From: an uncultured Candidatus Saccharibacteria bacterium
GTDB taxonomy: Bacteria > Patescibacteriota > Minisyncoccia > Spechtbacterales > HO2-43-30
Direction: 5' to 3'
DNA: 64,000 bases
Assembly: GCA_964504205.1 (NCBI GenBank)
Contig: CAZDDE010000001.1
Coordinates: forward strand, 58,473 to 122,472
Part shown: one piece after another, positions 1,295-40,329 of the stretch
Numbering within the stretch: position 1 is the first letter of the stretch
Layout: every line of letters begins with the position of its first letter
The notes under the pieces: generated by a model
Databases searched by the model: none
What the model was told of the DNA's origin: nothing
The model's input: the letters and a program-made list of their open reading frames with translations, nothing else
Position numbers and translations under genes: made by a program

Positions 1295-1684
1295 ATGCCT
1301 CGTATTGCAGGGGTCAACATACCCGAGAACAAACAAATATGGGTTTCGCTGACCTACATATATGGCATAGGGCGCAGTTTAAGTTACAAAATTTTACAGC
1401 AATGCGGTATCAACCCGTCCTTAAAAATCGATCGGATAAGTGCCGAAGAGGTCAATGCATTACGAAGTGCTGTTGAGAGTAATTATAAGGTTGAGGGCGA
1501 GTTGCGGCGGGAAAAACAGATGAATATTAAGCGCTTAAAGGATATCAGCTGTTACCGTGGCATAAGGCATATCAAAGGTCTTCCGGTGCGCGGTCAGCAA
1601 ACGCGCACAAACGGCCGCACTATTCGCGGCAATGTTCGCCGTACTATGGGCAGCGGCCGCAAGCCAGCAGCAAGCCCAACATAA
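1295..1684 (+). CDS. rpsM: 30S ribosomal protein S13
   Basis: MPRIAGVNIP... canonical S13 N-terminus. Start moved from the track's 1235 to the conserved MPRIAGV methionine, one nucleotide after the rpmJ stop. Confidence 0.9.
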   Translation: MPRIAGVNIPENKQIWVSLTYIYGIGRSLSYKILQQCGINPSLKIDRISAEEVNALRSAVESNYKVEGELRREKQMNIKRLKDISCYRGIRHIKGLPVRGQQTRTNGRTIRGNVRRTMGSGRKPAASPT

Positions 1685-1713
1685 AATTAAGCTAGTAAAT
1701 ATATAAATAACAA

Positions 1714-2151
1714 ATGGGCAAGAAGCGTATTATACAACAAGAAGAGATTGCGGCAGGGTCCCAAGAGGGGAAACCAGTAAAGTCTAAGGGCGCAAGACAG
1801 AAGCAGTTTTCGCATTCCCGTATTTTTGTTTTAGCCAGCTATAACAATACCTTGGTTTCAGTCGGAGATGCAAATGGGAATATTATTTCGTGGTCAAGCG
1901 CTGGCACTCTTGGGTTTAAAGGACCAAGGAAGGCAACGCCATTTGCGGCCTCGAAAGTAGTCGAAAATATTTTTGAAAAGTTGGCGGGAGTTAATTTAGG
2001 GAAAGTCGCGATTTCGGTGCAGGGAGTAGGCGGAGGCCGGGACGCGGCGGTGCGCGCGCTTGCTTCGCGCGGACTTGATATTACTTCTCTGCGCGACGCG
2101 ACTCCGTTGCCGCACAACGGCTGTCGTCCACGCAAGGCACGGCGTGTTTAA
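1714..2151 (+). CDS. rpsK: 30S ribosomal protein S11
   Basis: IFVLASYNNTLVSVGDANGN..SWSSAG...KGPRKATPFAA S11 signature. Confidence 0.93.
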   Translation: MGKKRIIQQEEIAAGSQEGKPVKSKGARQKQFSHSRIFVLASYNNTLVSVGDANGNIISWSSAGTLGFKGPRKATPFAASKVVENIFEKLAGVNLGKVAISVQGVGGGRDAAVRALASRGLDITSLRDATPLPHNGCRPRKARRV

Positions 2152-2166
2152 TTTGTAATTTTAAGT

Positions 2167-2655
2167 ATGGCAAACCGACGTCCAAAACAGAAGTCAGAAT
2201 ACGGCAGGCAGCTTGATGAAAAGCAGGAGCTTAAAGCAACATACGCTTTGCGCGAGAGGCAGTTCAGGAAATTTTTCCGAGCGGGTTCCGATCCCGAGTT
2301 GATTTATCGGATGCTTGAATTGCGAGTTGACAACGTGGTATATCGCGCTGGTTTCGCGTCGACCATCCGCGCCGCACGGCAAATTGTTAGCCATGGGCAC
2401 ATCCTGATTAATGGCAAAAAGACGGATATTCCTTCAGTTGCGATAAAACTGAATGATGTGATTAGTTTTCATAGTTCCAGTGTTAAAAAAATTCCTTTCC
2501 AGGATTTAGTGGTTCAGCTCAAAAAATATGAGCCGCCGCCATGGATTACTTTAAATATGGAGGATTTGAGCGCTAAGATTACCGCGCTTCCGGTAAGTGC
2601 CGATTCAATGACTATAAATAGAATTAAACCAGTCATTGGGTTCTATTCTCGATAA
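2167..2655 (+). CDS. rpsD: 30S ribosomal protein S4
   Basis: S4 N-terminal motifs YALRERQ..RKFF and an S4 RNA-binding domain (IVSHGHILINGKKTDIPS). Confidence 0.9.
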   Translation: MANRRPKQKSEYGRQLDEKQELKATYALRERQFRKFFRAGSDPELIYRMLELRVDNVVYRAGFASTIRAARQIVSHGHILINGKKTDIPSVAIKLNDVISFHSSSVKKIPFQDLVVQLKKYEPPPWITLNMEDLSAKITALPVSADSMTINRIKPVIGFYSR

Positions 2656-2669
2656 TTAGCTGTAAAAAT

Positions 2670-3431
2670 ATGCAAATAACTTTACCGAAACTACCCAAAA
2701 TTAAAGAGGAAGAAAAAAATAGAGCCGTATTTGTAATCGAAGATTTGTATCCGGGTTATGGCGTTACTGTCGGTAATGCCTTGCGACGCGCGCTTTATTC
2801 GTCAATACCCGGCGCGGCGATATCGCAGGTTAAAATAAAAGGCGCATCCCATGAGTTTTCAACCTTGAAGGGAGTGCTTGAAGATATTCTCGAGATAACT
2901 CTGAATCTTAAACAAATTTGTATCAAATTGCATGGCGACGAACCGCAGACCGCTTCCGTTAAGGTTAAGGGCGTTCGTGAGGTTACAGCGGCCGACATTG
3001 ATGCTCCAAGTCAGGTCGAAGTTATAAACAAGGATGCACACATCGCGACATTAACCAGTAAAGACGCGTCTTTCGAAATAGAACTGCTTATTGAAGCCGG
3101 ACTCGGTTACGTTCCGGTAGAGCAGCGCCAAAATGTTGGGGCGGAGATCGGTTCAATACCTTTGGATGCTATTTTTACGCCAATGCGTAAAGTAAATTTT
3201 GAAATTGAGAATATGCGCGTTGGCGACCGAACGGATTATAATCGCTTGGCGCTTGAAATAGTTACTAACGGGGCTATTTCTCCGCGAGAAGCACTTGTCT
3301 ACGCGGCAAAACTTCTCACCGAGCACTTTGCATTGGCGGGTGATATTGAGTTGCCAAAGGATTCTGCCGGAAAAGATAAAACTAAGGATAAACCGAGAAA
3401 AAAGATAATACGAAAAAAGATCAAGAAATAA
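2670..3431 (+). CDS. rpoA: DNA-directed RNA polymerase alpha subunit. It has the N-terminal dimerisation/assembly domain only and ends in a lysine-rich tail with no alpha C-terminal domain.
   Basis: 253 aa; alpha N-terminal domain motifs (GYGVTVGNALRRAL.SSIPGAAI); rplQ starts 9 nt downstream, so there is no room for a C-terminal domain. Confidence 0.88.
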   Translation: MQITLPKLPKIKEEEKNRAVFVIEDLYPGYGVTVGNALRRALYSSIPGAAISQVKIKGASHEFSTLKGVLEDILEITLNLKQICIKLHGDEPQTASVKVKGVREVTAADIDAPSQVEVINKDAHIATLTSKDASFEIELLIEAGLGYVPVEQRQNVGAEIGSIPLDAIFTPMRKVNFEIENMRVGDRTDYNRLALEIVTNGAISPREALVYAAKLLTEHFALAGDIELPKDSAGKDKTKDKPRKKIIRKKIKK

Positions 3432-3439
3432 AATAGATC

Positions 3440-3787
3440 ATGAACAAAAATAATTCAAGGAGAAAGTTTGGCCGCAAACGCGACCAGCGCGAAGCTTTGT
3501 TGGAAGGTTTGGCAAATGCGCTCGTATTGCATGAGAAAATTTTAACGACTGCGCCGCGTGCGAAGGAATTGCGCAAATATATCGAACCGATTATAACCAA
3601 ATCAAAATTAGATACGGTGAAAAATCGGCGTCTCGTCGCGAGAAAAATAAATAGCGCAGCCGTAAAAAAGTTATTTAGTAGTATCGCTCCGCGCTATAAG
3701 GAAATTTTTGGCGGATATACGCGCATAGTAAAGCATTCTCCACGCAAGACCGACTCTTCGCCCCTTGCAGTAATTGAATTGCGATGA
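3440..3787 (+). CDS. rplQ: 50S ribosomal protein L17
   Basis: L17-like; follows rpoA as in the canonical cluster. Confidence 0.9.
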   Translation: MNKNNSRRKFGRKRDQREALLEGLANALVLHEKILTTAPRAKELRKYIEPIITKSKLDTVKNRRLVARKINSAAVKKLFSSIAPRYKEIFGGYTRIVKHSPRKTDSSPLAVIELR

Positions 3788-4122
3788 CTTATAAAATTGA
3801 TGCAACAGCTAAAATTCTTGGTCGTTTGGCAACAGAAATTGCGGTGATTTTGCGCGGGAAAAATTTAGCGAATTTTACGCTCAACAGAAAACCTTCCATT
3901 AAGGTTGAGATTAGTAATGTTGGCAAAATTAGAGTGAGCGGAGATAAGGAGAAGTCAAAATTGTATTGGCATTATAGTGGTTATCCGGGCGGCATATACA
4001 AAACAAATTATGCGGATTTAAAACGGCAGAATCATAGTTTGATATTAAAAAAAGCTGTTTATGGGATGCTGCCGAAAAATCGTCTTCGCGCAAAGATGAT
4101 GAAAAATCTAATCGTAAAGTAA
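3784..4122 (+). CDS. rplM: 50S ribosomal protein L13
   Basis: L13 family similarity (ILGRLAT.IA..LRGK), immediately upstream of rpsI. Confidence 0.85.
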   Translation: MTYKIDATAKILGRLATEIAVILRGKNLANFTLNRKPSIKVEISNVGKIRVSGDKEKSKLYWHYSGYPGGIYKTNYADLKRQNHSLILKKAVYGMLPKNRLRAKMMKNLIVK

Positions 4123-4132
4123 AAAGTATATT

Positions 4133-4624
4133 ATGGCTACCGCGAAATCTTCAAAAAAAATTAAAAAGGCTAAGGTGAAGGAAGTAAAGGCCAAGGTGAT
4201 GGAAACGGAGGCTCCGGCAGAATCAAAGTCTCCAAGCCGCTATTATGAGGGTCTTGGCAGACGAAAACGCGCAGTTGCCCGCGTGCGCCTTTTTACCAGA
4301 GGCGAAAAGGGATTTCTGATCAATAATGTTGCGCATATTCAATATTTTCCAACCGAGGAGCTGCGCCTTATTGCGGACGCGGCATTAAGGAGAATGAAAG
4401 TGCTGGACAAGTTTGTGGTCTCGGTCAAGGTGATGGGTGGAGGAACTGCCGGGCAGGCAGAGGCCGTGCGGCATGGCATCTCGCGTGCGCTTATCAAATT
4501 TAATCCGGATTTCCGCAAGCGTCTCAAAAAATCTGGATTTTTGCGCCGCGATCCGCGGGAAAAAGAACGGCGCAAATTTGGCCTTAAGAAAGCAAGGAGA
4601 GCCCCGCAGTGGCAAAAGCGGTAG
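4133..4624 (+). CDS. rpsI: 30S ribosomal protein S9
   Basis: C-terminal GGG..GQA.A...GI.RAL......R..LKK.G.L.RD.R..ERKK.G..KAR.....KR is the S9 signature; a lysine-rich N-terminal extension is present. Confidence 0.92.
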   Translation: MATAKSSKKIKKAKVKEVKAKVMETEAPAESKSPSRYYEGLGRRKRAVARVRLFTRGEKGFLINNVAHIQYFPTEELRLIADAALRRMKVLDKFVVSVKVMGGGTAGQAEAVRHGISRALIKFNPDFRKRLKKSGFLRRDPREKERRKFGLKKARRAPQWQKR

Positions 4625-4642
4625 TGGCTTAGCGATCGTCGT

Positions 4643-5914
4643 TCACTTGAGTTCTGCGGCGTAGAGCGATCCTCCAGAAAGAAAGTAAAGAGTATTGCGC
4701 GTGTCGTCATAAGATAGCTTTTGCGCGCGCATGCTAATAATTTTATAAAGATTCTGCCTGTCTCTAGTATCTAACTCAATAATTTTTATTGCCTCCTCTT
4801 CGGAAAATATTATGTATTCGTTGTTTTTTGTAAACCAAATAGCGTCAAAGACGGGCGAATCATTCCTGACTACCTTTATCGTATCGCCGGTGTCGCGGAA
4901 AGGCTGTGTGTGATTATTTTCTAGCCACTGCACCCATATATCGTTTTCTTCGATAACTAAGAATTTCTTTCTATCCGGTGTAAACACTTTATCTGTTTCG
5001 CGGTCATCCGCCGGATGAAATGTCAGCTGTCGGATGTCGCCGGTCTGAAGGTCCAGCAGACTTTTCGTTTGAGTAACGGTGGAAATATAGATAATGTTAT
5101 TATCGTTAATTGTGAAAGAGGAAACATCGTGCGCCAACGTTTGGGGCAGTTTTCGGTTTTTCGTGCTATGTTTTAAAAGCAGATTAAACTTTTCATTCGC
5201 GGCAGTGAATATAATATCATCGGTATCGAGCGGATTCCAGGCGATTTTTAGAATACGCGCCTGTGATATCCTCAACTCATAGCTTGTATAACCTTTAAGT
5301 TCCTTGATTATCAGGCGTGCGCGGCTGATTCCGTTAAGCAAGAGGGCCACTTTCGAGGAATCAGGACTCCAGACTATTGCGGTTGCCTCGAAATTTGTTG
5401 AGGTTGCGCTATCCTGGTAAAGCAGACTTTTCTTGTCGGTGCGCTTCTCATATATATGGATATTGAGAATGGGATTTGTTTCGACGATGGCAATACGTTC
5501 ATTATCCGGAGATGGATAAAATTCAGCAAGATTTGATGCAAGGATTTTAGGAACAACATTCTTGGGAAATAAATAAATATTTTTTGCTTCAGTAACAAGC
5601 TTTGGCAGAACGGTTAACTTTTTCCCCCAGGAGAAATATCCGTCTTTTTTAACTTCAATGAGATAAGACCTTGGGAAAAGATTTCCGATGTAGATATTTT
5701 GAAAAACAAAATTGCTTTGTTTCTTTAATTTGCCATCGAAATACGCCCCTACCGGCGCTGGACGCGGTTCGAGGAATAATGCGCCAGTCTTAATAATCGC
5801 GCCGTAACGTAAGTCAAAACGGTATCCCTGGGAATACATAATGATAAGCGGAGTAATCAAGATAAACAGCGCGGCCATGGTAAAGAAAAGTATAGAACGA
5901 GTAGATGTTTTCAC
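4643..5914 (-). CDS. membrane-anchored protein with a predicted beta-propeller/PEGA-like ectodomain
   Basis: N-terminal transmembrane helix (ILFFTMAALFILITPLIIM), then a 400-aa beta-rich region with WD/TolB-like repeats. No catalytic motifs. Confidence 0.6.
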   Translation of the reverse strand: MKTSTRSILFFTMAALFILITPLIIMYSQGYRFDLRYGAIIKTGALFLEPRPAPVGAYFDGKLKKQSNFVFQNIYIGNLFPRSYLIEVKKDGYFSWGKKLTVLPKLVTEAKNIYLFPKNVVPKILASNLAEFYPSPDNERIAIVETNPILNIHIYEKRTDKKSLLYQDSATSTNFEATAIVWSPDSSKVALLLNGISRARLIIKELKGYTSYELRISQARILKIAWNPLDTDDIIFTAANEKFNLLLKHSTKNRKLPQTLAHDVSSFTINDNNIIYISTVTQTKSLLDLQTGDIRQLTFHPADDRETDKVFTPDRKKFLVIEENDIWVQWLENNHTQPFRDTGDTIKVVRNDSPVFDAIWFTKNNEYIIFSEEEAIKIIELDTRDRQNLYKIISMRAQKLSYDDTRNTLYFLSGGSLYAAELK

Positions 5915-6007
5915 TAGTTTGAATAATTACTTTTAACTTTTATTCAGGCACTATAACTCAAAATTTAAAATATTGCTACAGCAGCAAATTTATAGTATGG
6001 TGATTGA

Positions 6008-7294
6008 ATGTCCACATATCTTGTAATCAAAGGCGGAAAACGTTTATCCGGCACAATCCCTGTTTATGGATCAAAGAACGCCGCTTTGCCGATCATTGCG
6101 GCAACAATCCTCACAAAAACCCCATGCGTTATACGCAATATTCCGCGTGTTACGGATGTTCATGTAATGATTGATGCCCTGCGCGATATGGGCGCAAAAG
6201 TCTTGTGGAAGGATCGGCGGACGGTTATTATTGAGAATAAAGAGATTGATCCTGACAAGCTAAGCCAAAGCGCTGTGCAGAAAATGCGCGCCTCCATACT
6301 CTTTTGCGGTCCGCTGCTTGCGCGGTTTGGCGAAGTACGCAAAATGCATTACCCCGGCGGATGCAGTATAGGCGCGCGCCCAATCGATGTTCATTTGCGT
6401 TCATTTGAAGATTTGGGCGCAAAAGTAATTCGCGCGAATAATTTTTTCTCTATCTACAGAGAAGCGCGTCCCCGGTCACAAAATTCAGTTGTTTTAAACG
6501 AATTCAGTGTTACAGCAACCGAAAATGTTTTATTATTTGCAAGCGCAGTGCCGGAGCAAACGACGATTAAAATTGCTGCCGCAGAACCGCATGTTGCTGA
6601 TCTCGCCAAATTCCTTACAAAGACAGGTGCGCGAATACATGGCGCTGGGACTGCGCAAATCTCTATACGCGGTTCTGCAAATTTAATTGGAGCAACGCAC
6701 AGGATAATTGCTGATTACATTGAGGCCGGCACCTTTATCCTCATGGCTTTGGTGGCTGGCAGGGCAATTGAAATAAAAAATGCCCCAATCGAACATCTGG
6801 ACCTTGTTATTAAAAAACTTCGCGCGGCTGGAGGAAACATCGCTTGCAATCATCGCAAAAAAACAATAACCGTTCAATCTGGACGAAAAAGTTTAATTCT
6901 CGATAAGGTGCAAATCATGCCTTATCCCGGCATACCCACAGATTTGCAATCCGCCTTTGGCGTTTTTGCGGCTCGAACCGTTGGAGAAACGCTTATTCAC
7001 GAACCATTATATGAAAATCGTTTTGCCTGCCTAAAGGAACTAGCAAAATTTGGCGTAAGAATTAAAGCGCTTGATCCGCACCGTGCGATTGTGCATGGGC
7101 CAACAAACTTAAATGCCGCGGAAGTCAGCGGACACGACTTGCGCAGTGTCGCGGCCTTGGTCATTGCCGGGCTTGCGGCAAAGGGCACGACAATTGTCCG
7201 CGGCGCCGAGCACGTGGAGCGCGGCTACGAAAATTTGGAAGGCCGCCTGCTCGCCCTCGGGGCGAATATAAAGAAGGTTACAACTGACGATTGA
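6008..7294 (+). CDS. murA: UDP-N-acetylglucosamine 1-carboxyvinyltransferase
   Basis: 428 aa; MurA/EPSP-synthase fold motifs (GGK.LSG...V.GSKNAALPI..A..L; active-site loop ...PGGCSIG.RPID.H). Confidence 0.92.
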   Translation: MSTYLVIKGGKRLSGTIPVYGSKNAALPIIAATILTKTPCVIRNIPRVTDVHVMIDALRDMGAKVLWKDRRTVIIENKEIDPDKLSQSAVQKMRASILFCGPLLARFGEVRKMHYPGGCSIGARPIDVHLRSFEDLGAKVIRANNFFSIYREARPRSQNSVVLNEFSVTATENVLLFASAVPEQTTIKIAAAEPHVADLAKFLTKTGARIHGAGTAQISIRGSANLIGATHRIIADYIEAGTFILMALVAGRAIEIKNAPIEHLDLVIKKLRAAGGNIACNHRKKTITVQSGRKSLILDKVQIMPYPGIPTDLQSAFGVFAARTVGETLIHEPLYENRFACLKELAKFGVRIKALDPHRAIVHGPTNLNAAEVSGHDLRSVAALVIAGLAAKGTTIVRGAEHVERGYENLEGRLLALGANIKKVTTDD

Positions 7295-7304
7295 CTTTTG
7301 TTAA

Positions 7305-8324
7305 TTGTTTTTCATGTTTTCTCCTCGTAAAATTGGTATAGATCTTGGCACCTCAAACTCGCTTGTTTATGTGCCGAAAAAAGGCATTGTCATCAACGAG
7401 CCTTCGGTGGTGGCAATTTCAGTTGGCGATGGGGAAGTGCTCGCAGTGGGCAATGCCGCAAAAGCGATGATCGGCCGCACGCCTGATACAATCGTTGCTC
7501 ATCGCCCATTGAAGGACGGAGTTATCGCAGATTACCGCGTAACCGAAGCAATGATACGTCATTTTATCAGCCAAGTCAGCGGAAGAATACGTTTGTTTAA
7601 GCCGGAGGTTATGGTTTCCGTTCCAGCAGGGATTACCTCCACCGAACGGCGCGCGGTTATCGAAGCAACCATAAAAGCCGGCGCAAAGGCGGCATATGTG
7701 GTGAAAGAGCCGATTGTTGCAGCGATCGGGGCGGGCATTCCGATAAATTCTTCAACAGGGCATATGGTTGTGAATATTGGCGGCGGTACAACGGAAGTTG
7801 CGGTGATTTCATTGGGCGGAATAGTTTTTGCGAGTTCCGCCCGCGTCGGAGGCAACAAGATAGATGCGGCTATTACGGCGCATATTAAGCAAAAGCACGA
7901 TCTTGCTATTGGTGAACAAACCGCCGAAGAAATTAAAAAATCAATCGGCAGCGCTATACCAATAAAAGATGAGGAGGAACTTGTCATTCGCGGTCGCGAT
8001 ATGCTTACTGGTTTACCGCGCAATATCACTATAAAAACCAACGAGGTTACCGAGGCAATGACTGATATTCTGCGCGTGATTGTGCAAACTGTTAAGGCGG
8101 TTTTGCGGGAAACTCCGCCCGAACTTTCGGCGGATGTTATGGATAAAGGTATGGTCCTCACTGGCGGCGGGTCGCTCTTGCGCAACATAGATACTCTGCT
8201 TACGGAAGCTACCGGCGTTGCCGCGCATCTTGCCGAGGACCCTCTCCTTTGCGTCGCCAAAGGCACCGGTGTTGCGCTCGAAAACTTGGAAGTGTACAAG
8301 CGCAGCATAATGAGTAAGAAATAG
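7305..8324 (+). CDS. mreB: rod shape-determining protein MreB, paralog 1
   Basis: IGIDLGTSNS phosphate-1 motif, NIGGGTTEVAVISLGG phosphate-2 motif, an adenosine motif and LTGGGSLL; actin/Hsp70 fold. Confidence 0.9.
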   Translation: MFFMFSPRKIGIDLGTSNSLVYVPKKGIVINEPSVVAISVGDGEVLAVGNAAKAMIGRTPDTIVAHRPLKDGVIADYRVTEAMIRHFISQVSGRIRLFKPEVMVSVPAGITSTERRAVIEATIKAGAKAAYVVKEPIVAAIGAGIPINSSTGHMVVNIGGGTTEVAVISLGGIVFASSARVGGNKIDAAITAHIKQKHDLAIGEQTAEEIKKSIGSAIPIKDEEELVIRGRDMLTGLPRNITIKTNEVTEAMTDILRVIVQTVKAVLRETPPELSADVMDKGMVLTGGGSLLRNIDTLLTEATGVAAHLAEDPLLCVAKGTGVALENLEVYKRSIMSKK

Positions 8325-13075: not shown

Positions 13076-14066
13076 ATGGTTCAATAGAGCCAAAAATAGA
13101 AATCATCTACTAAAAAATGGTTCTACAAGGCCGTTTTTTAATATGTAACTACGTTTTCTAATCAATAGCTTTGCATCACCTCGTTCGGTGTTTTGAACTG
13201 TAATCCCATATGCGGTCGTTCCTCATTGTAGTATCGGAGATAATCCGGTATTTCTTTTTGCCACGATTTCAAACTCCTTGGGATACGGTTCAAACACTCG
13301 TCCTGTATGGTCCGATTGAACCTCTCAAGATGAGCGTTGTCGTTCGGTTTTCGGACTCGAGAATGGCGATGCGCGATCCCGTCAACCGCCACCATTTTCG
13401 TGAACCACTTCGAGAACTCCGGTCCGTGATCCGACTGCAGGGTCTTGACCAGAAATGGTAGTGACGCTGTCCGCACAAATTTCAGACTTCTATGGGTACT
13501 GATTCTCATTGCTGGCTCGGCCCTGGAACAAACATCCAGTATGGTATATACATACAATCTATTCTCATGCGGTCCATCGTGAATCGTGTCAATTTCCACT
13601 AATACGCCTGGTTTTTCAGCTAAAGGCCGTTCCGGATACTGATGCCACTTCTTCCAGCGGGAGTACCGGCTGCAGCCAAATCTCTTCAATACCCGCTTCA
13701 CCGAACTCAAGCTTGCCTGGTAGCCGTCATTCGTTAATCGATGGTGGAGAATCTCCGCGCACTGATGTCTTTCCGACCGGTATTCAAGAATCTTCCTTAC
13801 GATTTCTTGAGAAAGTTCCCGCGGATGATGATGGGGACGACAAGAGCGAGTGGGGATTACCAGTAAGTTAGAATTCCGCGCCTGTTCGACCCAGCGGACA
13901 ATGGAACTTTGATGGTATCCGGTGTGCCTGGAGACTCGTCTCGTGCTCCAGCCGTCACGAATTACCAACTGAGCGGCTTTCATCCGAAGCCGAGGAATAT
14001 ATTGATTTGTAGTGTATGGCATACCCATAGCTTAGAGCCATAGGTGATGCAAAGCTATTGAACCAT
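13076..14066 (-). mobile_element. IS481-family insertion sequence (single-ORF DDE transposase) with 24-bp terminal inverted repeats; the left repeat is interrupted
   Basis: Right inverted repeat GGTGATGCAAAGCTATTGAACCAT (14043-14066). Its reverse complement ATGGTTCAATAG|CTTTGCATCACC occurs on the left as 13076-13087 plus 13169-13180, split by about 75 bp followed by a repeated CAATAG. Confidence 0.7.
13162..14028 (-). CDS. IS481-family transposase (rve/DDE integrase core with N-terminal HTH)
   Basis: D (VEIDTIH), D (LQSDHGPEF), E (NDNAHLERFNRTIQDE), ERPHMGL motif; 288 aa single ORF. Confidence 0.88.
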   Translation of the reverse strand: MGMPYTTNQYIPRLRMKAAQLVIRDGWSTRRVSRHTGYHQSSIVRWVEQARNSNLLVIPTRSCRPHHHPRELSQEIVRKILEYRSERHQCAEILHHRLTNDGYQASLSSVKRVLKRFGCSRYSRWKKWHQYPERPLAEKPGVLVEIDTIHDGPHENRLYVYTILDVCSRAEPAMRISTHRSLKFVRTASLPFLVKTLQSDHGPEFSKWFTKMVAVDGIAHRHSRVRKPNDNAHLERFNRTIQDECLNRIPRSLKSWQKEIPDYLRYYNEERPHMGLQFKTPNEVMQSY

Positions 14067-14067
14067 A

Positions 14068-14889
14068 ACGAACTATTGACAAATATATTATTATATGCTA
14101 TAATGGGACTGTAAAATAAAGATACAAAAGTTCCTTGAAACAGAACAAGAGAAGAGAGACCCAACCCGAGGGCATCGGGATATAACCATAAGCAGGTTAA
14201 AGTATATGTTAAATAAGACGGTTGAGAAATCTCTTCTCTAGATGAAGTATCTAAGAAAAGATTTCCCAGCCGTTTTTCATTGCCCTTCCGAAGCTCCCGA
14301 GAGCGAAGGAGGGAGGAGAGAGTAATAAGATGGGTGGACACTAAACAACATATAATTGGTCTTAACCCACATCTTACAAAATTCATCCCGCACTTATTAT
14401 GAACAAGCTACGCTTAGAAACGCAGTCAGTTCATAATAAGTGCGGGACTCATCCTCCATCCTTGGCCCTCGAAGCTTTATGCGAAGTGGGCCTTCTCTCT
14501 AGATACGAGAGAAGATGTGAATTTAAGAGCTTGGGTAGTTCTTTCAAACGAAATAGTCATAGGTGGGGGACAAAGTGTCCTTGATGCAGAATTGAGGATA
14601 TCTCGTCCTTCACCTTCTCCGACTGCTCTGGATAAATTTCAAATCGTCCAGTGAAAGTGGAGGTCCCCTCAAGGTAAGGGAAAGGAGATAGACGTCGGCT
14701 TAGCCGACGTAATCCTCAGCATGGCATGGGTCTCGACCTGGCCATGTCTAAAGGGGCAGGATAACCTGCTCCGCGTGTCCTAACGAAAAGTTAGGGGAGC
14801 GCGTATTGCAAGATACGTAGCTCCCCGCTTCCACCGAATTTCTCACTTGCAAAAGTGGGAGATTCAGAGGAGGAGAGTTCTCTGAGAGA
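14068..14889. ncRNA. ORF-free, highly structured ~820-bp region; candidate large noncoding RNA of unknown class
   Basis: No ORF of 60 aa or more in any frame in an otherwise gene-dense genome. Many perfect or near-perfect local hairpins: 18-bp stem CCCGCACTTATTATGAAC/GTTCATAATAAGTGCGGG at 14383-14445; GCAGG-ataa-CCTGC; CGCG...CCTAAC-gaaaa-GTTAGG...CGCG (GNRA-like loop); GACGTCGGC-tta-GCCGACGT; CATGGC...GCCATG. Confidence 0.4.
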
Positions 14890-16361: not shown

Positions 16362-17627
16362 ATGAAATTTACGGAATTATTTACTAAAACTTTGAAAGAA
16401 GCGCCGGCAGACGAACCGGCGAAAAATGCGCAGCTTTTAACGCGCGGAGGTTTTGTTTACAAAAATTCGGCGGGAGTTTACTCGTACTTGCCGCTCGGCT
16501 GGCTGGTTATAAACAAGATCAATAAAATTGTGCGCGAAGAGATGAATGCCATTGGCGGAGTAGAGATGTTCATGCCCGCGCTTGTGGATAGAAAGTATCT
16601 GGAGACAACGGATCGGTTTAAGCTGGATGTCGGATTTGATGCCCTCGGGAAAAAAGATAAAAAAGCGCCGTATGCCTTGGGTTGGACGCACGAAGAAGTG
16701 CTGACCGATATTGTTTCAAAGTATATTTATTCATACAAAGATTTGCCTATCGCTGTTTATCAGATTCAGACAAAGTTTCGCAACGAAGCGCGCGCGAAAA
16801 GCGGCCTTTTGCGCGGCCGCGAATTTCTCATGAAGGATCTCTATAGTTTTCATGCGGACGAAAAAGATCTTTTTGCATACTACGAAAAAGTAAAGCAGGC
16901 CTATTTTAATGTTGCGAGACGATGCGGCTTAAACACTTACTACACTGTTGCCGGCGGGGGAGATTTCACTATGTCCAACACTCACGAATTTCAGGTTTTA
17001 TCTGATGTTGGCGAAGATGAAATATATTATTGCAGTGATTGCGGTTACTCTGAAAATAAAGAGATATCAAAGTTAAAGCAAGGCGAAAAATGCCCTGCCC
17101 AAGAATGCGCCGGACTGATTAAGCACGACAACGCGATAGAAGTGGGCAATATTTTTCCGCTTGGAACTAAATATTCCCAAGCATTTAATCTCAAATATAG
17201 CGATGAGACTGGCAATAAAAAATTCGTAGTTATGGGTTCATACGGCATTGGCATCAGCCGATTGATAGGCACGGTCGTTGAAATTTCGAGCGACACAAAA
17301 GGGATAATTTGGCCAAAAGAAATCGCGCCATTTGACGCGCATCTTGTTTATCTTGCAACGAGCAACACACATGTGAAAGAAGAAGCAGATAAGATTTATG
17401 GTCTTTTACAGAAGGAGGGGATTGGAGTATTATACGATAATCGGGAAAACGCGACTGCCGGCGAAAAATTTACTGACGCCGATTTGCTGGGCATGCCTTG
17501 GCGCATCGTTATAAGCGATAAAACCTTAGCGCATAATTCCAGCGTGGAATTAAAGCGGCGCGATGAAAAAAATGCAGTACTATGCTCTCTAAACTCTTCG
17601 GTTATTTCTCAAAAGATATCGGCATAG
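16362..17627 (+). CDS. proS: prolyl-tRNA synthetase, short form without the editing insertion
   Basis: class II aaRS motifs, an anticodon-binding domain, and an inserted Cys-cluster zinc ribbon (CSDCGY...CPAQEC); 421 aa. Confidence 0.85.
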   Translation: MKFTELFTKTLKEAPADEPAKNAQLLTRGGFVYKNSAGVYSYLPLGWLVINKINKIVREEMNAIGGVEMFMPALVDRKYLETTDRFKLDVGFDALGKKDKKAPYALGWTHEEVLTDIVSKYIYSYKDLPIAVYQIQTKFRNEARAKSGLLRGREFLMKDLYSFHADEKDLFAYYEKVKQAYFNVARRCGLNTYYTVAGGGDFTMSNTHEFQVLSDVGEDEIYYCSDCGYSENKEISKLKQGEKCPAQECAGLIKHDNAIEVGNIFPLGTKYSQAFNLKYSDETGNKKFVVMGSYGIGISRLIGTVVEISSDTKGIIWPKEIAPFDAHLVYLATSNTHVKEEADKIYGLLQKEGIGVLYDNRENATAGEKFTDADLLGMPWRIVISDKTLAHNSSVELKRRDEKNAVLCSLNSSVISQKISA

Positions 17628-18619
17628 ATTTAGGTACGGCAAATACCCTTGTTTATGTGCGCGGCCGCGGAATTGTCATCAACGAACCGTCGGTTGTGGC
17701 GATTAATCAAAAAACTGGACAGGTGCTTGCCATTGGCGAGGAAGCGCGGCGTATGGTTGGGCGCACTCCGGCGCACATTGTTGCGAGCCGTCCTCTTCGC
17801 GAGGGCGTTATTTCGGATTTCGAAGTAACCGAGCAGATGCTCAAGTACTTTATAAACAAGGTGCATAAAGGATCGCTTTTTCCATTTCCAAGGCCGCGTG
17901 TTGTTATTGGCATACCTTCCGGAGTTACTGAAGTAGAAAGAAAGGCCGTCCAGGACGCGGCTAAAAACGCCGGTGCGCGCGAAGTGTATCTCATCGAAGA
18001 GCCAATTGCTGCGGCGATTGGTGCGCGCATGCCTGTACAAGATGCTATTGGAAATATGATTGTGGATATCGGCGGCGGCACTACAGAAATAGCCGTGATC
18101 TCGCTTGGGGGTCTTGTTGTGGCAAAAAGCATCCGTATTGCGGGTGATAAAATGGACGAAGATATTATCAGTTTTGCGCGCGATGAGCTCAATCTTTTGC
18201 TCGGCGAACGTACTGCCGAGGAAATAAAAATTGAAATCGGCTCCTGTCTTCCCTTAGAGCAGTCACTTCCTGCAACTATGCGCGGACGCGATCTTGTTTC
18301 CGGCTTGCCACGGGAAATTGCGGTAACCGACAAGCAAATCCGCAACGCCCTTGAAAAATCAGTTAATTTCCTGGTGGCGAGGGTTAAGGAAACTATCGAA
18401 GCAACTCCACCAGAGTTGCTTGCTGATATTATGCGCAATGGCATAGTTCTTGCCGGCGGAGGCGGTTTGCTTAGGAAATTTGATGAGCTGCTTGCACGCG
18501 AAACGCAGGTTCCGGTGAAACTCGCCGAAGATCCCTTAACCGCGGTTGTGCGCGGCACGGGCGTTATTCTTGAAAATATAGAAAAACTCAAAGATACTTT
18601 CATTCCTGACGAATATTAA
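17582..18619 (+). CDS. mreB: rod shape-determining protein MreB, paralog 2
   Basis: IGIDLGTANTLVYV, DIGGGTTEIAVISLGG, LAGGGGLL motifs; overlaps the proS 3' end by 46 nt; directly upstream of mrdA. Confidence 0.88.
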   Translation: MLSKLFGYFSKDIGIDLGTANTLVYVRGRGIVINEPSVVAINQKTGQVLAIGEEARRMVGRTPAHIVASRPLREGVISDFEVTEQMLKYFINKVHKGSLFPFPRPRVVIGIPSGVTEVERKAVQDAAKNAGAREVYLIEEPIAAAIGARMPVQDAIGNMIVDIGGGTTEIAVISLGGLVVAKSIRIAGDKMDEDIISFARDELNLLLGERTAEEIKIEIGSCLPLEQSLPATMRGRDLVSGLPREIAVTDKQIRNALEKSVNFLVARVKETIEATPPELLADIMRNGIVLAGGGGLLRKFDELLARETQVPVKLAEDPLTAVVRGTGVILENIEKLKDTFIPDEY

Positions 18620-18626: not shown

Positions 18627-20549
18627 GTGGATGAAACAAAATTTTCAAAATATAAAGTTCAGGTTTCGCTTCGCGAACAAATTGAACCCGACGAAATTTT
18701 TTTTGATGGTTCGAAGATTAAGGAATTTGAAGCTGGGGAATTAGAGGTCGGAAAATTTGAAACGCCAATATCCTCTGCCGCGTTTAGATTTTTTGCGGTT
18801 GTACAATTTGGAGCACTCATTTTTATTGGCGCAGTTACCGGATTCATGATTGTTTCAAGCGGTCATGACCATGTTGCGCAAGCTAACAAAAACACGGAGC
18901 GTGTTTTTCCAATTTTTGCGCCGCGCGGTTTGATTTTCTCATCGGATGGCGAAATTCTTGCGCAAAATGAACTATATTTTGATTTGCTCGTCAATTCGGC
19001 GGAAATTCCTCCAGCTGATGCGCTTGTGCGCGAAATCTCTGATGACATTAGTTCATCCTTAAACCTGAATTCCCTTGCTATTTATGAAAATTTGCGCCAA
19101 GCCGTTCAAAAACGTTTCGCCGAATACGTTTTATTGAAAGGAATGTCAAAGGAGGAACTGGATAAGATTGAAGGCATTATAGCCGGTAAATCATTTTTTG
19201 AAATACGGGAGGTTTATCGGCGGAATTATCCCGATGGACAAGCATTTGCGCATATACTAGGATATACCGGCGAGGTTCCGCCTGGGGAATTAAGCAATCG
19301 TGATTATTTCCCCGGGGAACGCATTGGAAAAGCCGGGATTGAAGCATTTTACGACGAAGTGCTTAGCGGCAAGAGTGGAATACTCATCAAAAAGACAAAT
19401 TCGCGCGGCGAGATATTTGGCCAGGATATTGAGCGTGAAGCACGCGCAGGGGAAGATATGCGCATTTCAGTTAACGCGAAACTTCAAAAAAAAATCTATG
19501 AAATCCTGAATCAGCATGTAAGGGCCTTGAAAATATCCTCCGCTGCGGCAGTTCTTCTAGATCCGCGATCTGGGGAAGTTTTAGCGCTAGTAAGTCTGCC
19601 GGGTTTCAACGCCAATTTATTTGAAGGAGGCATAACCGATAACAAACTCGCGGATATATTGAGCGATGAGAAAAAACCGCTGTTTAATCGCGCAGTAGCC
19701 GGCGAATACCCAAGCGGCTCAACAATTAAACCGCTGATTGCCGCGGCTGCGCTGGAGGAGAAGTTGATTTCGGCGGATTTTTTAGTTTACAGCGGCGGAG
19801 CAATTTCTGTGCCAAGCGCTTACAACAGCGCAATCACCTATGAGTTTAAAGATTGGAAAGCGCACGGCTGGACAGATTTGCGTAAAGCGATTGCCGATTC
19901 GGTTAACGTTTATTTTTATACTATCGGCGGAGGCTATAACAATCAGCAAGGACTCGGTATCAAAAAAATCAGTGAATATCTTCTAAGGTTTGGCTGGGGA
20001 GATATCCTTGGCATTGATATCATTGGAGAGAAAGGCGGTTTAATACCATCGCCAAAATGGAAAAAGGAAACAAAGGGCGAAAACTGGTATATCGGTGATA
20101 CGTATCTTACTTCTATCGGGCAAGGCGATATCCTTGTAACTCCATTGCAAATTGCAGCCGCGACAGCAGTTTTTGCAAATGGCGGTACGCTTTTTACCCC
20201 GCATTTTGCTGCGAAACAAAACAATGCGCCAAAGATTACCCGCCGCAATTTTGTAAGCAGTGAGAATATAGATATAATTCGCGAAGGAATGCGCCGAGCA
20301 GTAACTTCCGGATCCAGCAGGTTTTTATCGGATTTACCGTATACTGTTGCGGGAAAAACCGGTACCGCACAAACCGCTCGTGCGCGAAACCATGCTTGGT
20401 TCACCGGGTTTGCGCCATATGAAAATCCGGAAGTTGCAATCACCGTACTTCTCGAAGAGGGCGAGAGCAGCAATTACGCTGTGCGCGCCGCTAAAGACAT
20501 CCTTGACGCTTATTTTGAAATATTTTATCCACAAGATTCAAGTAGTTGA
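18627..20549 (+). CDS. mrdA: penicillin-binding protein 2 (elongasome transpeptidase)
   Basis: N-terminal transmembrane helix, RG.I.D..G..LA start motif, SGSTIKP (SxxK), SVN (SxN) and KTGTA (KTG) motifs. Confidence 0.85.
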   Translation: MDETKFSKYKVQVSLREQIEPDEIFFDGSKIKEFEAGELEVGKFETPISSAAFRFFAVVQFGALIFIGAVTGFMIVSSGHDHVAQANKNTERVFPIFAPRGLIFSSDGEILAQNELYFDLLVNSAEIPPADALVREISDDISSSLNLNSLAIYENLRQAVQKRFAEYVLLKGMSKEELDKIEGIIAGKSFFEIREVYRRNYPDGQAFAHILGYTGEVPPGELSNRDYFPGERIGKAGIEAFYDEVLSGKSGILIKKTNSRGEIFGQDIEREARAGEDMRISVNAKLQKKIYEILNQHVRALKISSAAAVLLDPRSGEVLALVSLPGFNANLFEGGITDNKLADILSDEKKPLFNRAVAGEYPSGSTIKPLIAAAALEEKLISADFLVYSGGAISVPSAYNSAITYEFKDWKAHGWTDLRKAIADSVNVYFYTIGGGYNNQQGLGIKKISEYLLRFGWGDILGIDIIGEKGGLIPSPKWKKETKGENWYIGDTYLTSIGQGDILVTPLQIAAATAVFANGGTLFTPHFAAKQNNAPKITRRNFVSSENIDIIREGMRRAVTSGSSRFLSDLPYTVAGKTGTAQTARARNHAWFTGFAPYENPEVAITVLLEEGESSNYAVRAAKDILDAYFEIFYPQDSSS

Positions 20550-23222: not shown

Positions 23223-23648
23223 ATGCAAAACTTTGAAATCATAGCTCGCGCGGTGATCATAGACAATGATAAAATTTTGCTCTGCAAGCGCAAAGATCGC
23301 GATTACTATTTTTTGCCCGGCGGGCATGTTGAGTTTGGCGAAAAAACGGAAGACGCGCTCGCGCGCGAAATAAAGGAAGAACTTGGCGCAGTTAGTAGCG
23401 AGATAAATTTTATAGGCGCGTGTGAGAATATTTTTACACAAGATGGGCAAAAACGCCATGAGTTAAATTTGGCCTTTGCGGCAAAACTCGCCGCGTCAAG
23501 AACAATAAGCATGGAGGATCATCTTGAATTTAAATTAGTTGACTTCAGTGAATTCACAGACACCAACGTTCTTCCAGTTGCGTTAACGCAAGGTGTAGTC
23601 AGGTGGCTAAGCGACAAGCAGCTTTTTTGGGTTGCTTATCAGTCTTGA
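23223..23648 (+). CDS. NUDIX hydrolase
   Basis: Nudix box GGHVEFGEKTEDALAREIKEELG (G-x5-E-x7-REUxEExGU). Confidence 0.75.
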   Translation: MQNFEIIARAVIIDNDKILLCKRKDRDYYFLPGGHVEFGEKTEDALAREIKEELGAVSSEINFIGACENIFTQDGQKRHELNLAFAAKLAASRTISMEDHLEFKLVDFSEFTDTNVLPVALTQGVVRWLSDKQLFWVAYQS

Positions 23649-23672
23649 CAGAGGATTGATAATGGCTATAAT
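23645..23672 (+). promoter_or_regulatory. sigma70-type promoter overlapping the hrcA start region; TTGACA, 16-bp spacer, TATAAT
   Basis: TTGACA 23645-23650 and TATAAT 23667-23672. This implies a transcript start near 23679-23680, and the in-frame GTG at 23680 gives MLTERQ..., the canonical HrcA N-terminus. Confidence 0.5.
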
Positions 23673-34061: not shown

Positions 34062-34135
34062 CCCCGCTTGCCAAAGGCGGGTTTTTTGTTAGGATGATCT
34101 TAGAACCTTTAGCAAAACGCAAAACGGAGGCTAAG

Positions 34136-34768: not shown

Positions 34769-34810
34769 GGAAACCTAGCTTTTTTACTTCTCCTGTGATA
34801 TATTGTCCAC

Positions 34811-36465: not shown

Positions 36466-36480
36466 AAGGAGCATTAAATT

Positions 36481-36837: not shown

Positions 36838-36894
36838 TTATAAAGAATGAGTTATGATTATATCAAGCAACTTTATTCAAGAAGGAGATGGAGA

Positions 36895-37098: not shown

Positions 37099-37125
37099 AT
37101 CGGCATAGCATACTCTCACCAAGTT

Positions 37126-39437: not shown

Positions 39438-39570
39438 GCCTCAACTATACCATATGGGCAGGCTGTGTATAACTAGATAGGGGACACCGTACACTTGACA
39501 AAATTTTTAGCTAAAGCATAATGCATTTAGGCTCGCGAAGAACAATAATACAAAAATAAGGAGGTAGAAT

Positions 39571-40206: not shown

Positions 40207-40329
40207 ACGCCTTTCTAAAAGGCGTTTATTTATTGTTATCATGCTTGCAAAGCTTGAGTTTCTATGTGAGTATATTTTGAAAGTTCGTTGACAAAAATTT
40301 TATAAAATAGAATCGCCAGGAGGAGGATT

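What the first reader, a model, noticed from the sequence alone, without database searches (positions are those of the whole stretch)
2670..3431. RNA polymerase alpha subunit without a C-terminal domain
rpoA encodes only 253 aa: the alpha N-terminal assembly domain followed by a Lys-rich tail (KDSAGKDKTKDKPRKKIIRKKIKK). rplQ starts 9 nt later, so no alpha C-terminal domain can be encoded here. That domain normally mediates UP-element and activator contacts. Its absence would imply activator-independent, simplified promoter recognition. The repeated near-consensus TTGACAA-ATTTTT...TATAAT promoters in this window (46137, 45210, 39492, 40283, 20546, 23645) are consistent with that.
Basis: partly seen in the sequence, partly recalled or inferred. 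Interest (0 to 1): 0.5.

Follow-up and report, generated by a model that had tools for sequence, protein, structure and literature searches.

The report
RNA polymerase alpha lacking its C-terminal domain
This candidate-phyla-radiation bacterium, like many of its relatives, has an RNA polymerase alpha subunit whose regulatory and DNA-binding C-terminal domain is replaced by a short, disordered, lysine-rich tail, so a domain usually treated as universal in bacteria is dispensable across this lineage.

Summary
ORF 2670-3431 encodes a 253-aa RpoA. It consists of the complete alpha N-terminal domain (equivalent to E. coli alpha 10-235) plus a 25-residue disordered Lys-rich tail. rplQ starts 9 nt after the stop codon. 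No alpha C-terminal domain (aCTD) is encoded in any frame of the 64-kb window.

It is not a frameshift or assembly artefact:
- The identical protein occurs in two other assemblies.
- All of the 50 closest homologues (Candidatus Spechtbacterales) have the same build.
- 56 of 80 related Patescibacteria species genomes also lack the aCTD.

Of 143 distinct CTD-less proteins, 137 end in a strongly basic patch. A few end in an AT-hook-like KRGRPKK. In relatives that keep the aCTD, the linker is net acidic.

My best reading is a genuine, lineage-wide loss of the aCTD. That removes UP-element reading and aCTD-dependent activation. The polycationic tail probably supplies non-specific contact with upstream DNA; this step is inferred, not shown.

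I found one sentence in the literature noting aCTD loss in Parcubacteria. I found no description of the conserved basic tail. I could not test whether a stand-alone aCTD lies elsewhere in this genome.

The parts
2670..3431 (+). rpoA: RNA polymerase alpha subunit, 253 aa, N-terminal domain plus basic tail, no aCTD
   Evidence: PF01000 and PF01193 only; TIGR02027 scores 256.7 bits over model positions 2-236 of 298; residues 5-227 align with E. coli alpha 10-235.
2670..3353 (+). Alpha N-terminal domain (residues 1-228): dimerisation and beta/beta' assembly platform. The GNALRR motif, containing the equivalent of E. coli Arg45, is present.
   Evidence: AlphaFold2 pLDDT is mostly above 90 up to about residue 228, and the last helix is 205-223; 26 columns are invariant across 89 orthologues, including L38 R39 R40.
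3354..3428 (+). Disordered Lys-rich C-terminal tail (residues 229-253, PKDSAGKDKTKDKPRKKIIRKKIKK; 13 K/R, 3 D/E), in the position where the linker and aCTD normally follow
   Evidence: pLDDT 47-58 and no secondary structure; highest K/R count in a C-terminal 25-mer among 68 window ORFs; the basic character is conserved in orthologues although the sequence is not.
3440..3787 (+). rplQ (ribosomal protein L17). It starts 9 nt after the rpoA stop codon, leaving no room for an aCTD.
   Evidence: PF01196, 5.7e-30
2167..2655 (+). rpsD (ribosomal protein S4), the canonical upstream neighbour of rpoA
   Evidence: PF01479, PF00163
953..4624 (+). The surrounding alpha-operon block, in canonical bacterial order: infA, rpsM, rpsK, rpsD, rpoA, rplQ, rplM, rpsI
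   Evidence: ORFs; Pfam calls on the identical ENA contig L001: S13, S11, S4, RpoA, L17, L13, S9

Best explanation
This is a genuine, evolutionarily fixed form of bacterial RpoA in which the aCTD has been lost. A short, intrinsically disordered, polycationic tail now follows directly after the N-terminal domain.

Shown:
- The N-terminal domain is intact and highly conserved. It should therefore still dimerise and nucleate the alpha2-beta-beta' core.
- No aCTD is encoded at the locus or anywhere else in the window.
- The architecture is shared by the whole Spechtbacterales-like clade and by many other Patescibacteria.

Follows from established knowledge of E. coli and B. subtilis RNA polymerase:
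- Such an enzyme assembles and performs sigma-dependent basal transcription.
- It cannot read UP elements or be recruited by activators that work through the aCTD.
- Promoter strength must therefore rest on the sigma-read -35, -10 and extended -10 elements. Regulation must rest on repressors, sigma factors, or activators that touch other surfaces.

Inferred:
- The two basic tails per enzyme (about +10 net charge each here) reach the DNA just upstream of -35. They would provide sequence-independent, or in the AT-hook-like versions AT-minor-groove, electrostatic contacts.
- That would replace the non-specific upstream-DNA contacts that aCTDs normally make.

Approximate confidence by step: real loss at this locus 0.97; lineage-wide trait 0.95; no aCTD supplied in trans 0.7; tail binds upstream DNA 0.4.
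For: Domain content. No aCTD in six frames of the window.

Independent assemblies carry the identical gene and the same neighbours.

Clade-wide distribution:
- The 50 best homologues (57-100% identity, some named Candidatus Spechtbacteria or Spechtbacterales) are 240-283 aa and lack PF03118. CTD-bearing relatives first appear at about 60% identity.
- 56 of 80 GTDB species loci lack the aCTD, with tails of 22-68 aa.
- rplQ follows directly. 61 of the 80 loci were confirmed by the automated scan, and 7 of the 19 it missed were confirmed by reading the ORFs.

Tail conservation:
- 137 of 143 distinct CTD-less proteins have a net charge of +4 or more in their last 12 residues. Tail composition is 35% Lys.
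- Linkers of 52 CTD-bearing relatives have a median net charge of -2.
- RGRP occurs in 5 tails and nowhere else in these proteins. Pfam AT_hook is the only family hit for four of six such tails, at 12-17 bits against a cut-off of 17.4.

AlphaFold2 gives a confident N-terminal domain and a disordered tail.

The window's K/R-rich C-terminus is the extreme among 68 ORFs in a 45.5% GC genome, so it is not a general proteome bias.

B. subtilis cells whose alpha is replaced by a CTD-less version keep growing, with a doubling time of 1.9 h against 1.0 h (PMC4495994). The aCTD is not needed for assembly or basal transcription in E. coli (as summarised in PMC8321222).

Context compatible with this reading:
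- Four perfect consensus promoters occur against 0.09 expected. None has an A/T-rich UP-like block upstream.
- The only transcription factors found in the window are the repressors HrcA and NrtR.
Against: - Only 64 kb of the genome was visible, so a stand-alone aCTD elsewhere is not excluded.
- Two apparently stand-alone aCTD ORFs exist on very short metagenome contigs (P0247 and P0261). The idea of a separate aCTD gene is therefore not absurd.
- DNA binding by the tail is inferred from composition, conservation and position only.
- The window's own tail has no AT-hook.
- Lys-rich termini also occur on ribosomal proteins in this genome; RpsI has 12 K/R in its last 25 residues.
- Six of 143 CTD-less tails are not basic at the end. 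One of these (L040) is purely acidic.
- The promoter and regulator evidence rests on a handful of sites.
Confidence: 0.6

Rival explanations
1. The aCTD is not lost but supplied in trans. A separate small gene elsewhere in the genome would encode a stand-alone aCTD (a split rpoA) that still binds UP elements and activators.
For: The aCTD profile search of 1.84 billion representatives returned two single-domain proteins of 77-80 aa (P0247 and P0261). On their contigs they sit just upstream of rplQ and are not preceded by an RpoA N-terminal domain. One of them comes from a sister sample of the assemblies that contain this window's RpoA.
Against: - No aCTD was found in six frames of the 64-kb window.
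- No second aCTD hit was found anywhere in 491 kb of sequence around the rpoA genes of 80 related species.
- 78 of 80 JGI metagenome loci related to P0261 are ordinary fused rpoA genes. The other two are an in-frame stop and a contig edge.
- The other short hits to P0261 lie on contigs of 0.5-4.4 kb. Three of them retain part of the N-terminal domain, as expected for fragments of full-length RpoA cut at contig edges.
- The two stand-alone cases occupy the slot before rplQ. In this window that slot is taken by the tail-bearing rpoA.
- They lie on contigs of 699 and 1260 bp and could be chimeric.
- An untethered aCTD has no known way of recruiting RNA polymerase beyond a weak contact with sigma region 4 (my own knowledge, not tested here).
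Confidence: 0.15
2. The loss of the aCTD is real, but the tail is a functionless remnant of the inter-domain linker. Its lysine richness would reflect compositional drift in a small, reduced genome, and the polymerase would simply do without upstream contacts.
For: - The tail sequence is not conserved, only its composition.
- Tail lengths vary from 16 to 68 aa.
- A few lineages have non-basic ends (L040, L052).
- The tail is disordered.
- Endosymbionts such as Hodgkinia and Tremblaya lost the aCTD in the course of genome erosion (PMC8321222).
Against: - 137 of 143 tails keep a C-terminal patch of +4 or more. Homologous linkers in CTD-bearing relatives are net acidic, so the basic character was gained, not inherited.
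- AT-hook-like KRGRPKK ends appear on several of the related tails.
- The window is 45.5% GC, and the RpoA tail is the most basic C-terminus of 68 ORFs.
Confidence: 0.2
3. Artefact. A frameshift, premature stop or misassembly truncated an ordinary full-length rpoA in this assembly.
For: The tail coding region contains short A-runs (for example AGAAAAAAG), which are error-prone. One database relative (P0081) does look like a frameshifted Azambacteria rpoA.
Against: - There are only 8 nt between the stop codon and the rplQ start. About 240 nt of missing aCTD coding sequence therefore has nowhere to be.
- The identical protein occurs in two other assemblies.
- More than 140 orthologues down to about 45% identity share the architecture.
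- No aCTD signal was found in any frame.
Confidence: 0.02
4. The basic tail serves another partner rather than promoter DNA. Candidates are nascent RNA, the ribosome (transcription-translation coupling), an acidic regulatory protein, or general nucleoid association.
For: Polycationic disordered tails bind any polyanion. Many tails in the second style carry a long acidic stretch before the basic end, which suggests more than a simple DNA clamp.
Against: - The tail leaves the alpha N-terminal domain at the point where the linker to the DNA-binding aCTD normally emerges, facing upstream DNA (a structural expectation from E. coli holoenzyme structures, not tested here).
- AT-hook-like motifs in relatives point to the minor groove of AT-rich DNA.
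Confidence: 0.1

Closest known systems
Canonical bacterial RpoA (E. coli, B. subtilis, T. thermophilus; TIGR02027; PF01193 + PF01000 + PF03118)
   Same: It has an orthologous N-terminal domain: 158-213 bits to solved alpha chains, with residues 5-227 aligning to E. coli 10-235. It sits in the same operon position between rpsD and rplQ. The GNALRR motif is conserved.
   Different: It lacks the flexible linker plus the roughly 70-80-aa helix-hairpin-helix aCTD that binds UP elements and activators. A 25-aa Lys-rich disordered tail is present instead.
Laboratory aCTD truncations: E. coli alpha(1-235) enzymes, and the B. subtilis RpoA-del strain (PMC4495994)
   Same: Same domain content. These constructs show that such an enzyme assembles, binds DNA, elongates and supports growth for hours, with reduced expression of UP-element-dependent and activator-dependent genes.
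   Different: Those are engineered and handicapped. Here the truncation is the natural, conserved state, and it carries an added basic tail that the laboratory constructs lack.
aCTD loss in extremely reduced insect endosymbionts (Hodgkinia, Tremblaya) and in Euglena chloroplast rpoA (PMC8321222 and its reference 69)
   Same: Natural RpoA retaining mostly the N-terminal domain. This has been interpreted as loss of UP-element recognition during genome reduction.
   Different: Those are degenerating organelle-like genomes, and in some the N-terminal domain is eroded as well. Here the N-terminal domain is intact. The trait spans a large environmental radiation. The C-terminus has gained a conserved polycationic or AT-hook-like patch.
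Archaeal Rpo3 (subunit D) and eukaryotic Rpb3/AC40
   Same: Homologous assembly-platform subunits that naturally lack any aCTD.
   Different: This protein is not of that type. The archaeal subunit D model NF001988 scores 27 bits against a cut-off of 153. The window protein is clearly bacterial RpoA.
AT-hook and histone-H1-like lysine-rich DNA-binding tails (for example HMGA AT-hooks, chlamydial Hc1, the mycobacterial HupB C-terminus)
   Same: Disordered K/A/P/T-rich repeats (AKK, PAKK, TKKK) and, in some relatives, a KRGRPKK core. Such segments bind DNA, often the minor groove of AT-rich DNA, which is the same groove the aCTD reads in UP elements.
   Different: The resemblance is in composition and motif only. 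Pfam AT_hook is below threshold in the relatives and absent from the window's own tail. No binding was tested.

Membership tests
Bacterial RNA polymerase alpha subunit (RpoA, TIGR02027) | Rpb3/Rpb11-type dimerisation domain (PF01193) | tested here: met
   71.5 bits against a cut-off of 24, residues 28-220
Bacterial RNA polymerase alpha subunit (RpoA, TIGR02027) | RpoA insert domain (PF01000) | tested here: met
   102.9 bits against a cut-off of 33.9, residues 54-170, full-length model match
Bacterial RNA polymerase alpha subunit (RpoA, TIGR02027) | Equivalog model score above the curated cut-off | tested here: met
   TIGR02027 scores 256.7 bits against 227.8, although only model positions 2-236 of 298 are matched
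Bacterial RNA polymerase alpha subunit (RpoA, TIGR02027) | C-terminal helix-hairpin-helix domain (PF03118, aCTD) | tested here: not met
   no hit at E<=1; a custom aCTD HMM gives a best hit of E=0.76 anywhere in the six frames of the window. Only 25 residues follow the N-terminal domain.
Bacterial RNA polymerase alpha subunit (RpoA, TIGR02027) | Position in the alpha operon between rpsD and rplQ | tested here: met
Bacterial RNA polymerase alpha subunit (RpoA, TIGR02027) | Assembles into an alpha2-beta-beta' core | not testable with these tools
   Inferred from the intact, conserved N-terminal domain
Archaeal/eukaryotic Rpo3(D)/Rpb3 subunits (naturally without a CTD) | Match to subunit D models above the cut-off | tested here: not met
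   NF001988 scores 27.2 bits against a cut-off of 153; NF011548 scores 13 against 194
AT-hook DNA-binding motif (PF02178) | R-G-R-P core flanked by basic residues, scoring above the Pfam cut-off | tested here: not met
   the window's tail gives no hit. Tails of relatives (L080 16.9, L039 14.5, L032 13.0, L078 12.3 bits) fall just below the 17.4-bit cut-off, so they are AT-hook-like only.
Split rpoA with a stand-alone aCTD gene | A separate ORF with PF03118 in the same genome | tested here: inconclusive
   Absent from the 64-kb window and from 491 kb around 80 related rpoA loci.

The most novel reading that the evidence does not exclude
In a large part of the candidate phyla radiation the aCTD has been lost, probably more than once. 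It has been replaced convergently by a pair of disordered polycationic or AT-hook-like alpha tails. These would act as a sequence-independent clamp on upstream DNA. That would be a distinct mode of promoter engagement for bacterial RNA polymerase, with no UP-element code and no aCTD-mediated activation, and regulation resting largely on repressors and sigma factors.
Probability: 0.35. Interest if true: 0.75.

Novelty: new variant of a known kind. Interest (0 to 1): 0.6.

Why it matters
The aCTD is the textbook docking site for UP elements and for many bacterial activators. A 2025 survey calls it ubiquitously present across all Bacteria (PMC12531629).

A natural, conserved polymerase without an aCTD in a radiation that makes up a large share of bacterial diversity would have several consequences:
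- Regulatory logic inferred from E. coli (class I activation, UP-element-boosted rRNA promoters) cannot be transferred to these organisms.
- It gives a natural experiment on what minimal upstream contact a bacterial polymerase needs.
- It gives a concrete, testable hypothesis: a basic tail acting as a surrogate DNA contact.
- It is practically relevant for designing promoters and inducible systems in Patescibacteria, for which genetic tools are only now being developed (PMC11665869).
- It warns annotators that a roughly 250-aa RpoA in these genomes is not a truncated gene call.

Tried and rejected
1. Frameshift or misassembly. Rejected: there is no room before rplQ, two other assemblies carry the identical gene, and more than 140 orthologues share the build.

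2. aCTD elsewhere in the window. A six-frame search with a custom HMM found only noise.

3. aCTD in the flanks of related loci. None was found outside fused rpoA genes.

4. Stand-alone aCTD family.
- The profile search of 1.84 billion representatives was dominated by unrelated proteins with multiple aCTD-like repeats. It gave two single-domain candidates.
- Following them up showed that they lie on tiny contigs. Their relatives are fused genes or short hits on small contigs. I treat them as rare or possibly chimeric, and they remain unexplained.

5. Cluster look-up of the multi-repeat proteins, to see whether they are CPR proteins. Only one carried a name (Oligoflexia), so there is no link to this finding.

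6. Counting independent losses on a neighbour-joining tree of the N-terminal domain. Parsimony gave 22 changes. CTD-bearing and CTD-less sequences interleave in poorly resolved parts of the tree. I do not trust the number and claim only 'probably more than once'.

7. Automated check that rplQ follows rpoA. Single-sequence phmmer missed divergent L17 in 19 loci. Reading the ORFs in 7 of them showed L17 directly downstream.

8. Literature. Ten full-text searches found no study of CPR RpoA architecture.
- The only mention is one sentence in PMC8321222.
- It cites Nelson & Stegen 2015. The main text of that paper never mentions RNA polymerase, and its supplement only lists rpoA as a core gene.

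9. UP elements. The 30 nt upstream of the consensus -35 hexamers show no A/T-tract pattern. There are too few sites for statistics.

10. Rfam and tRNA scans of the window found only two tRNAs, nothing bearing on the finding.

Full report
**Observation**

The ORF at 2670-3431 (+) encodes 253 aa. It lies in a canonical alpha-operon block: infA, rpsM, rpsK, rpsD, rpoA, rplQ, rplM, rpsI.

Domain content:
- Pfam finds the RpoA insert domain (PF01000, 1.7e-29) and the dimerisation domain (PF01193, 4.6e-20). It finds no RNA_pol_A_CTD (PF03118) even at E<=1.
- The NCBIfam rpoA equivalog TIGR02027 passes its cut-off (256.7 bits against 227.8), but only model positions 2-236 of 298 are matched.
- Against solved structures, residues 5-227 align with E. 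coli alpha 10-235. That is the alpha N-terminal domain as usually delimited.
- The GNALRR motif, which contains the equivalent of E. coli Arg45, is present and invariant across 89 orthologues.

After the N-terminal domain come 25 residues, PKDSAGKDKTKDKPRKKIIRKKIKK, then TAA. The rplQ ATG follows 9 nt later. AlphaFold2, run with an 89-sequence alignment, gives a confident N-terminal domain (pLDDT mostly above 90) and a tail with no secondary structure and pLDDT 47-58.

**Is it an artefact?**

No, for four reasons.
- The roughly 240 nt that an aCTD needs has nowhere to fit.
- An aCTD profile built from 27 CTD-bearing relatives finds only noise in all six frames of the 64-kb window (best E=0.76).
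- The identical protein, with the same neighbours, occurs on contigs from two other ENA assemblies.
- The architecture is shared by relatives. The 50 closest database proteins (57-100% identity; those with names are Candidatus Spechtbacteria or Spechtbacterales) are 240-283 aa and lack PF03118. CTD-bearing proteins (Azambacteria, Nealsonbacteria and others, 300-330 aa) first appear at about 60% identity.

One database protein, P0081, does look like a frameshifted full-length gene. It has a quite different, non-basic tail, which shows what an artefact looks like.

**How widespread is it?**

I scanned one genome per GTDB species for relatives and kept the best 80 loci, all Patescibacteria by sequence. 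Of these, 56 have an RpoA that ends 22-68 residues after the N-terminal domain with no aCTD. The other 24 have a normal aCTD.
- CTD-less records include genomes labelled Spechtbacterales, Magasanikbacteria, Buchananbacteria, Falkowbacteria and Paceibacterota, and a closed 1.17-Mb genome (CP129476.1).
- CTD-bearing records include Azambacteria, Staskawiczbacteria, Vogelbacteria, Kaiserbacteria and Doudnabacteria.
- rplQ directly follows rpoA in 61 of the 80 loci by the automated scan, and in the 7 of the remaining 19 that I read by eye.
- This sample is biased towards relatives of the query, so 70% is not an estimate for the whole radiation.

A neighbour-joining tree of the N-terminal domain interleaves the two states; parsimony gives 22 changes. 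I do not trust that resolution. I conclude only that the loss is ancient, widespread and probably happened more than once.

**The tail**

The tail sequence is not conserved, but its character is. Among 143 distinct CTD-less proteins:
- The median tail length is 40 aa.
- The composition is 35% Lys.
- 137 have a net charge of +4 or more in their last 12 residues.

In 52 CTD-bearing relatives, the homologous linker has a median net charge of -2.

Two styles appear.
- An all-basic, histone-H1-like style (AKK, PAKK and TKKK repeats). This window belongs to it.
- An acidic stretch followed by a short basic end (EKPKKKKASKKK, KPAKKKSKK).

Five tails end in K(K/R)RGRPKK, and one more in AGRPKK. RGRP occurs nowhere else in these proteins. 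Pfam AT_hook is the only family hit for four of the six such tails, just below its cut-off (12-17 bits against 17.4). The window's own tail has no AT-hook.

The basic tail is not a general property of this genome's proteins. The window is 45.5% GC, and RpoA has the most K/R-rich C-terminal 25-mer of 68 ORFs.

**Mechanism**

Established knowledge:
- E. coli enzymes with alpha truncated at residue 235 assemble and carry out basal transcription. They do not respond to UP elements or to activators that act through the aCTD (as summarised in PMC8321222).
- B. subtilis cells in which alpha is replaced by a CTD-less version keep growing, at about half the rate. Expression of ribosome-synthesis and secondary-carbon genes is reduced (PMC4495994).

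So the enzyme here should work. It should rely on sigma-read core elements, and it cannot use aCTD-mediated recruitment.

My inference is that the two polycationic tails per enzyme contact DNA just upstream of -35. They emerge exactly where the linker to the aCTD normally leaves the N-terminal domain. The contact would be non-specific, or biased towards the AT minor groove in the AT-hook-like versions. This would substitute for the sequence-independent upstream contacts of aCTDs. I put this at about 0.4. It is supported by position, conserved charge, the contrast with acidic linkers, and the AT-hook-like variants. Nothing was measured.

**Context in the window**

- Four perfect TTGACA-N16/17-TATAAT sites occur against 0.09 expected, at 14076, 20546, 23645 (in front of the hrcA-grpE-dnaK-dnaJ genes) and 46137 (in front of groES-groEL).
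- The 30 nt upstream of these sites show no A/T-tract UP-like pattern.
- The only transcription factors I found among about 60 ORFs are HrcA and an NrtR-type Nudix regulator next to NAD-salvage genes. Both families are repressors.

All this is compatible with a polymerase that reads only core promoter elements and is regulated mainly by repressors. The numbers are far too small to prove it.
- Three are perfect.
- One (39495) has one mismatch.
- Two (45210 and 40288) have a good -35 only.

**The main rival: an aCTD supplied in trans**

I searched an aCTD profile against 1.84 billion representative proteins. There were 24,471 hits. The top of the list was dominated by proteins with 2-13 tandem aCTD-like repeats. 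It also contained two single-domain proteins of 77 and 80 aa, P0261 and P0247.
- Both lie directly upstream of rplQ on contigs of 1260 and 699 bp. Neither is preceded by an RpoA N-terminal domain. Stand-alone aCTD genes may therefore exist.
- However, a scan of JGI metagenomes with P0261 returned 80 loci. In 78 of them the aCTD is fused to the N-terminal domain in one ORF. The other two are an in-frame stop and a contig edge.
- The other short database hits lie on contigs of 0.5-4.4 kb. Three of them retain part of the N-terminal domain, as expected for fragments cut at contig edges.
- No extra aCTD occurs in 491 kb around the 80 GTDB loci.
- In this window the slot upstream of rplQ is occupied by the tail-bearing rpoA.

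I therefore rate this rival at about 0.15. I could not scan the rest of the genome, and this remains the key open test.

**Literature**

Ten full-text searches found no analysis of RpoA architecture in the candidate phyla radiation.
- One sentence in Rangel-Chavez et al. 2021 (PMC8321222) states that loss of the aCTD 'is also present in Parcubacteria', citing Nelson & Stegen 2015.
- The held main text of that paper never mentions RNA polymerase. Its supplement only lists rpoA as a core gene.
- A 2025 survey of aCTD evolution describes the domain as ubiquitously present across all Bacteria (PMC12531629).

The bare loss has therefore been noted in passing. I found no description of its breadth, the conserved basic end, or the AT-hook-like variants. 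Subscription-only literature was not searchable.

**Verdict**

The loss of aCTD functions is real. 'Activator-independent' overreaches, and the tail is probably functional.
- This is a new variant of a known kind: bacterial RpoA with the CTD replaced by a polycationic tail, conserved across many Patescibacteria.
- Interest 0.6.

Noticed in passing
Proteins P0121-P0270, e.g. P0121 (1031 aa, 12 repeats), P0126 (452 aa), P0203 (205 aa, Oligoflexia): The best matches to an aCTD profile in 1.84 billion representative proteins are not RpoA. They are proteins made of 2-13 tandem aCTD-like helix-hairpin-helix repeats, 180-1800 aa long. Some have a hydrophobic N-terminus. The one named member is annotated only as 'helix-hairpin-helix domain-containing protein'. 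Their role is unknown.
   Followed up: partly
L083 179-421 and L084 83-316 (proteins P0247 and P0261): Two apparently stand-alone aCTD genes (80 and 77 aa) lie directly upstream of rplQ with no RpoA N-terminal domain before them. In L084 the upstream 82 nt is AT-rich and contains TATAAT. The contigs are only 699 and 1260 bp, so this could be a split rpoA or a chimeric assembly. L084 comes from a sister sample of the assemblies that carry this window's RpoA.
   Followed up: partly
L141 96-692 and 696-1031: A metagenome rpoA in which the N-terminal domain and the rest (linker plus aCTD) are in the same frame but separated by a single in-frame stop codon. This could be a sequencing error or an organism with a reassigned stop codon.
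   Followed up: no
window 39495, 40288, 45210, 46137 (+): A -35-like TTGACAA followed by an A/T run ending in TTTT recurs at four intergenic sites: upstream of the ORF at 39571, the E1-type dehydrogenase gene at 40330, the ORF at 45290, and groES. TTGACAAWWWTTTT has 2 exact matches against 0.05 expected. Only 46137 and 39495 have a canonical -10 at 16-17 nt. This might be a shared operator or an extended -35 element.
   Followed up: partly
window 14076-14104 (+), next to 13162-14028 (-): The best promoter match in the window is TTGACA-17-TATAAT with a TG extension. It sits beside an rve-family integrase (IS element) gene and is followed by about 300 nt with no convincing ORF and no Rfam match. 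It could be an outward-facing IS promoter or an unannotated small RNA.
   Followed up: no
window 7305-8324 and 17582-18619 (+): There are two MreB paralogues (441 and 473 bits to PF06723), together with a PBP2-type transpeptidase (18627-20549) and MurA (6008-7294). This is a fairly full rod-shape and cell-wall gene set for an ultrasmall CPR bacterium.
   Followed up: no
window 32029-36465 (+): An NAD-salvage cluster: isochorismatase/PncA-like, nicotinate phosphoribosyltransferase, an NrtR-type Nudix-winged-helix regulator (34811-35473) and NAD kinase. NrtR is one of only two transcription factors detected in the window; the other is HrcA at 23632-24357.
   Followed up: no
window 40330-45160: A fused E1 alpha/beta-type 2-oxoacid dehydrogenase (824 aa), an E2 acyltransferase (464 aa) and a lipoate-protein ligase on the opposite strand. 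This is notable metabolic equipment for a Parcubacteria-type genome.
   Followed up: no
L052 and L053 (contig JAUSHC010000022.1, 42,936 bp): The same rpoA locus appears twice on one contig in opposite orientation (positions 1654-8259 and 34678-41283). This suggests a palindromic assembly artefact or an inverted duplication.
   Followed up: no
window 4133-4624 (+): RpsI (S9) carries an N-terminal Lys/Ala-rich extension of about 35 residues (MATAKSSKKIKKAKVKEVKAKV...) that the usual S9 of about 130 aa lacks. Related loci show similar extensions (e.g. L025 and L059). Basic low-complexity extensions on nucleic-acid-binding proteins may be a wider theme in these genomes.
   Followed up: no
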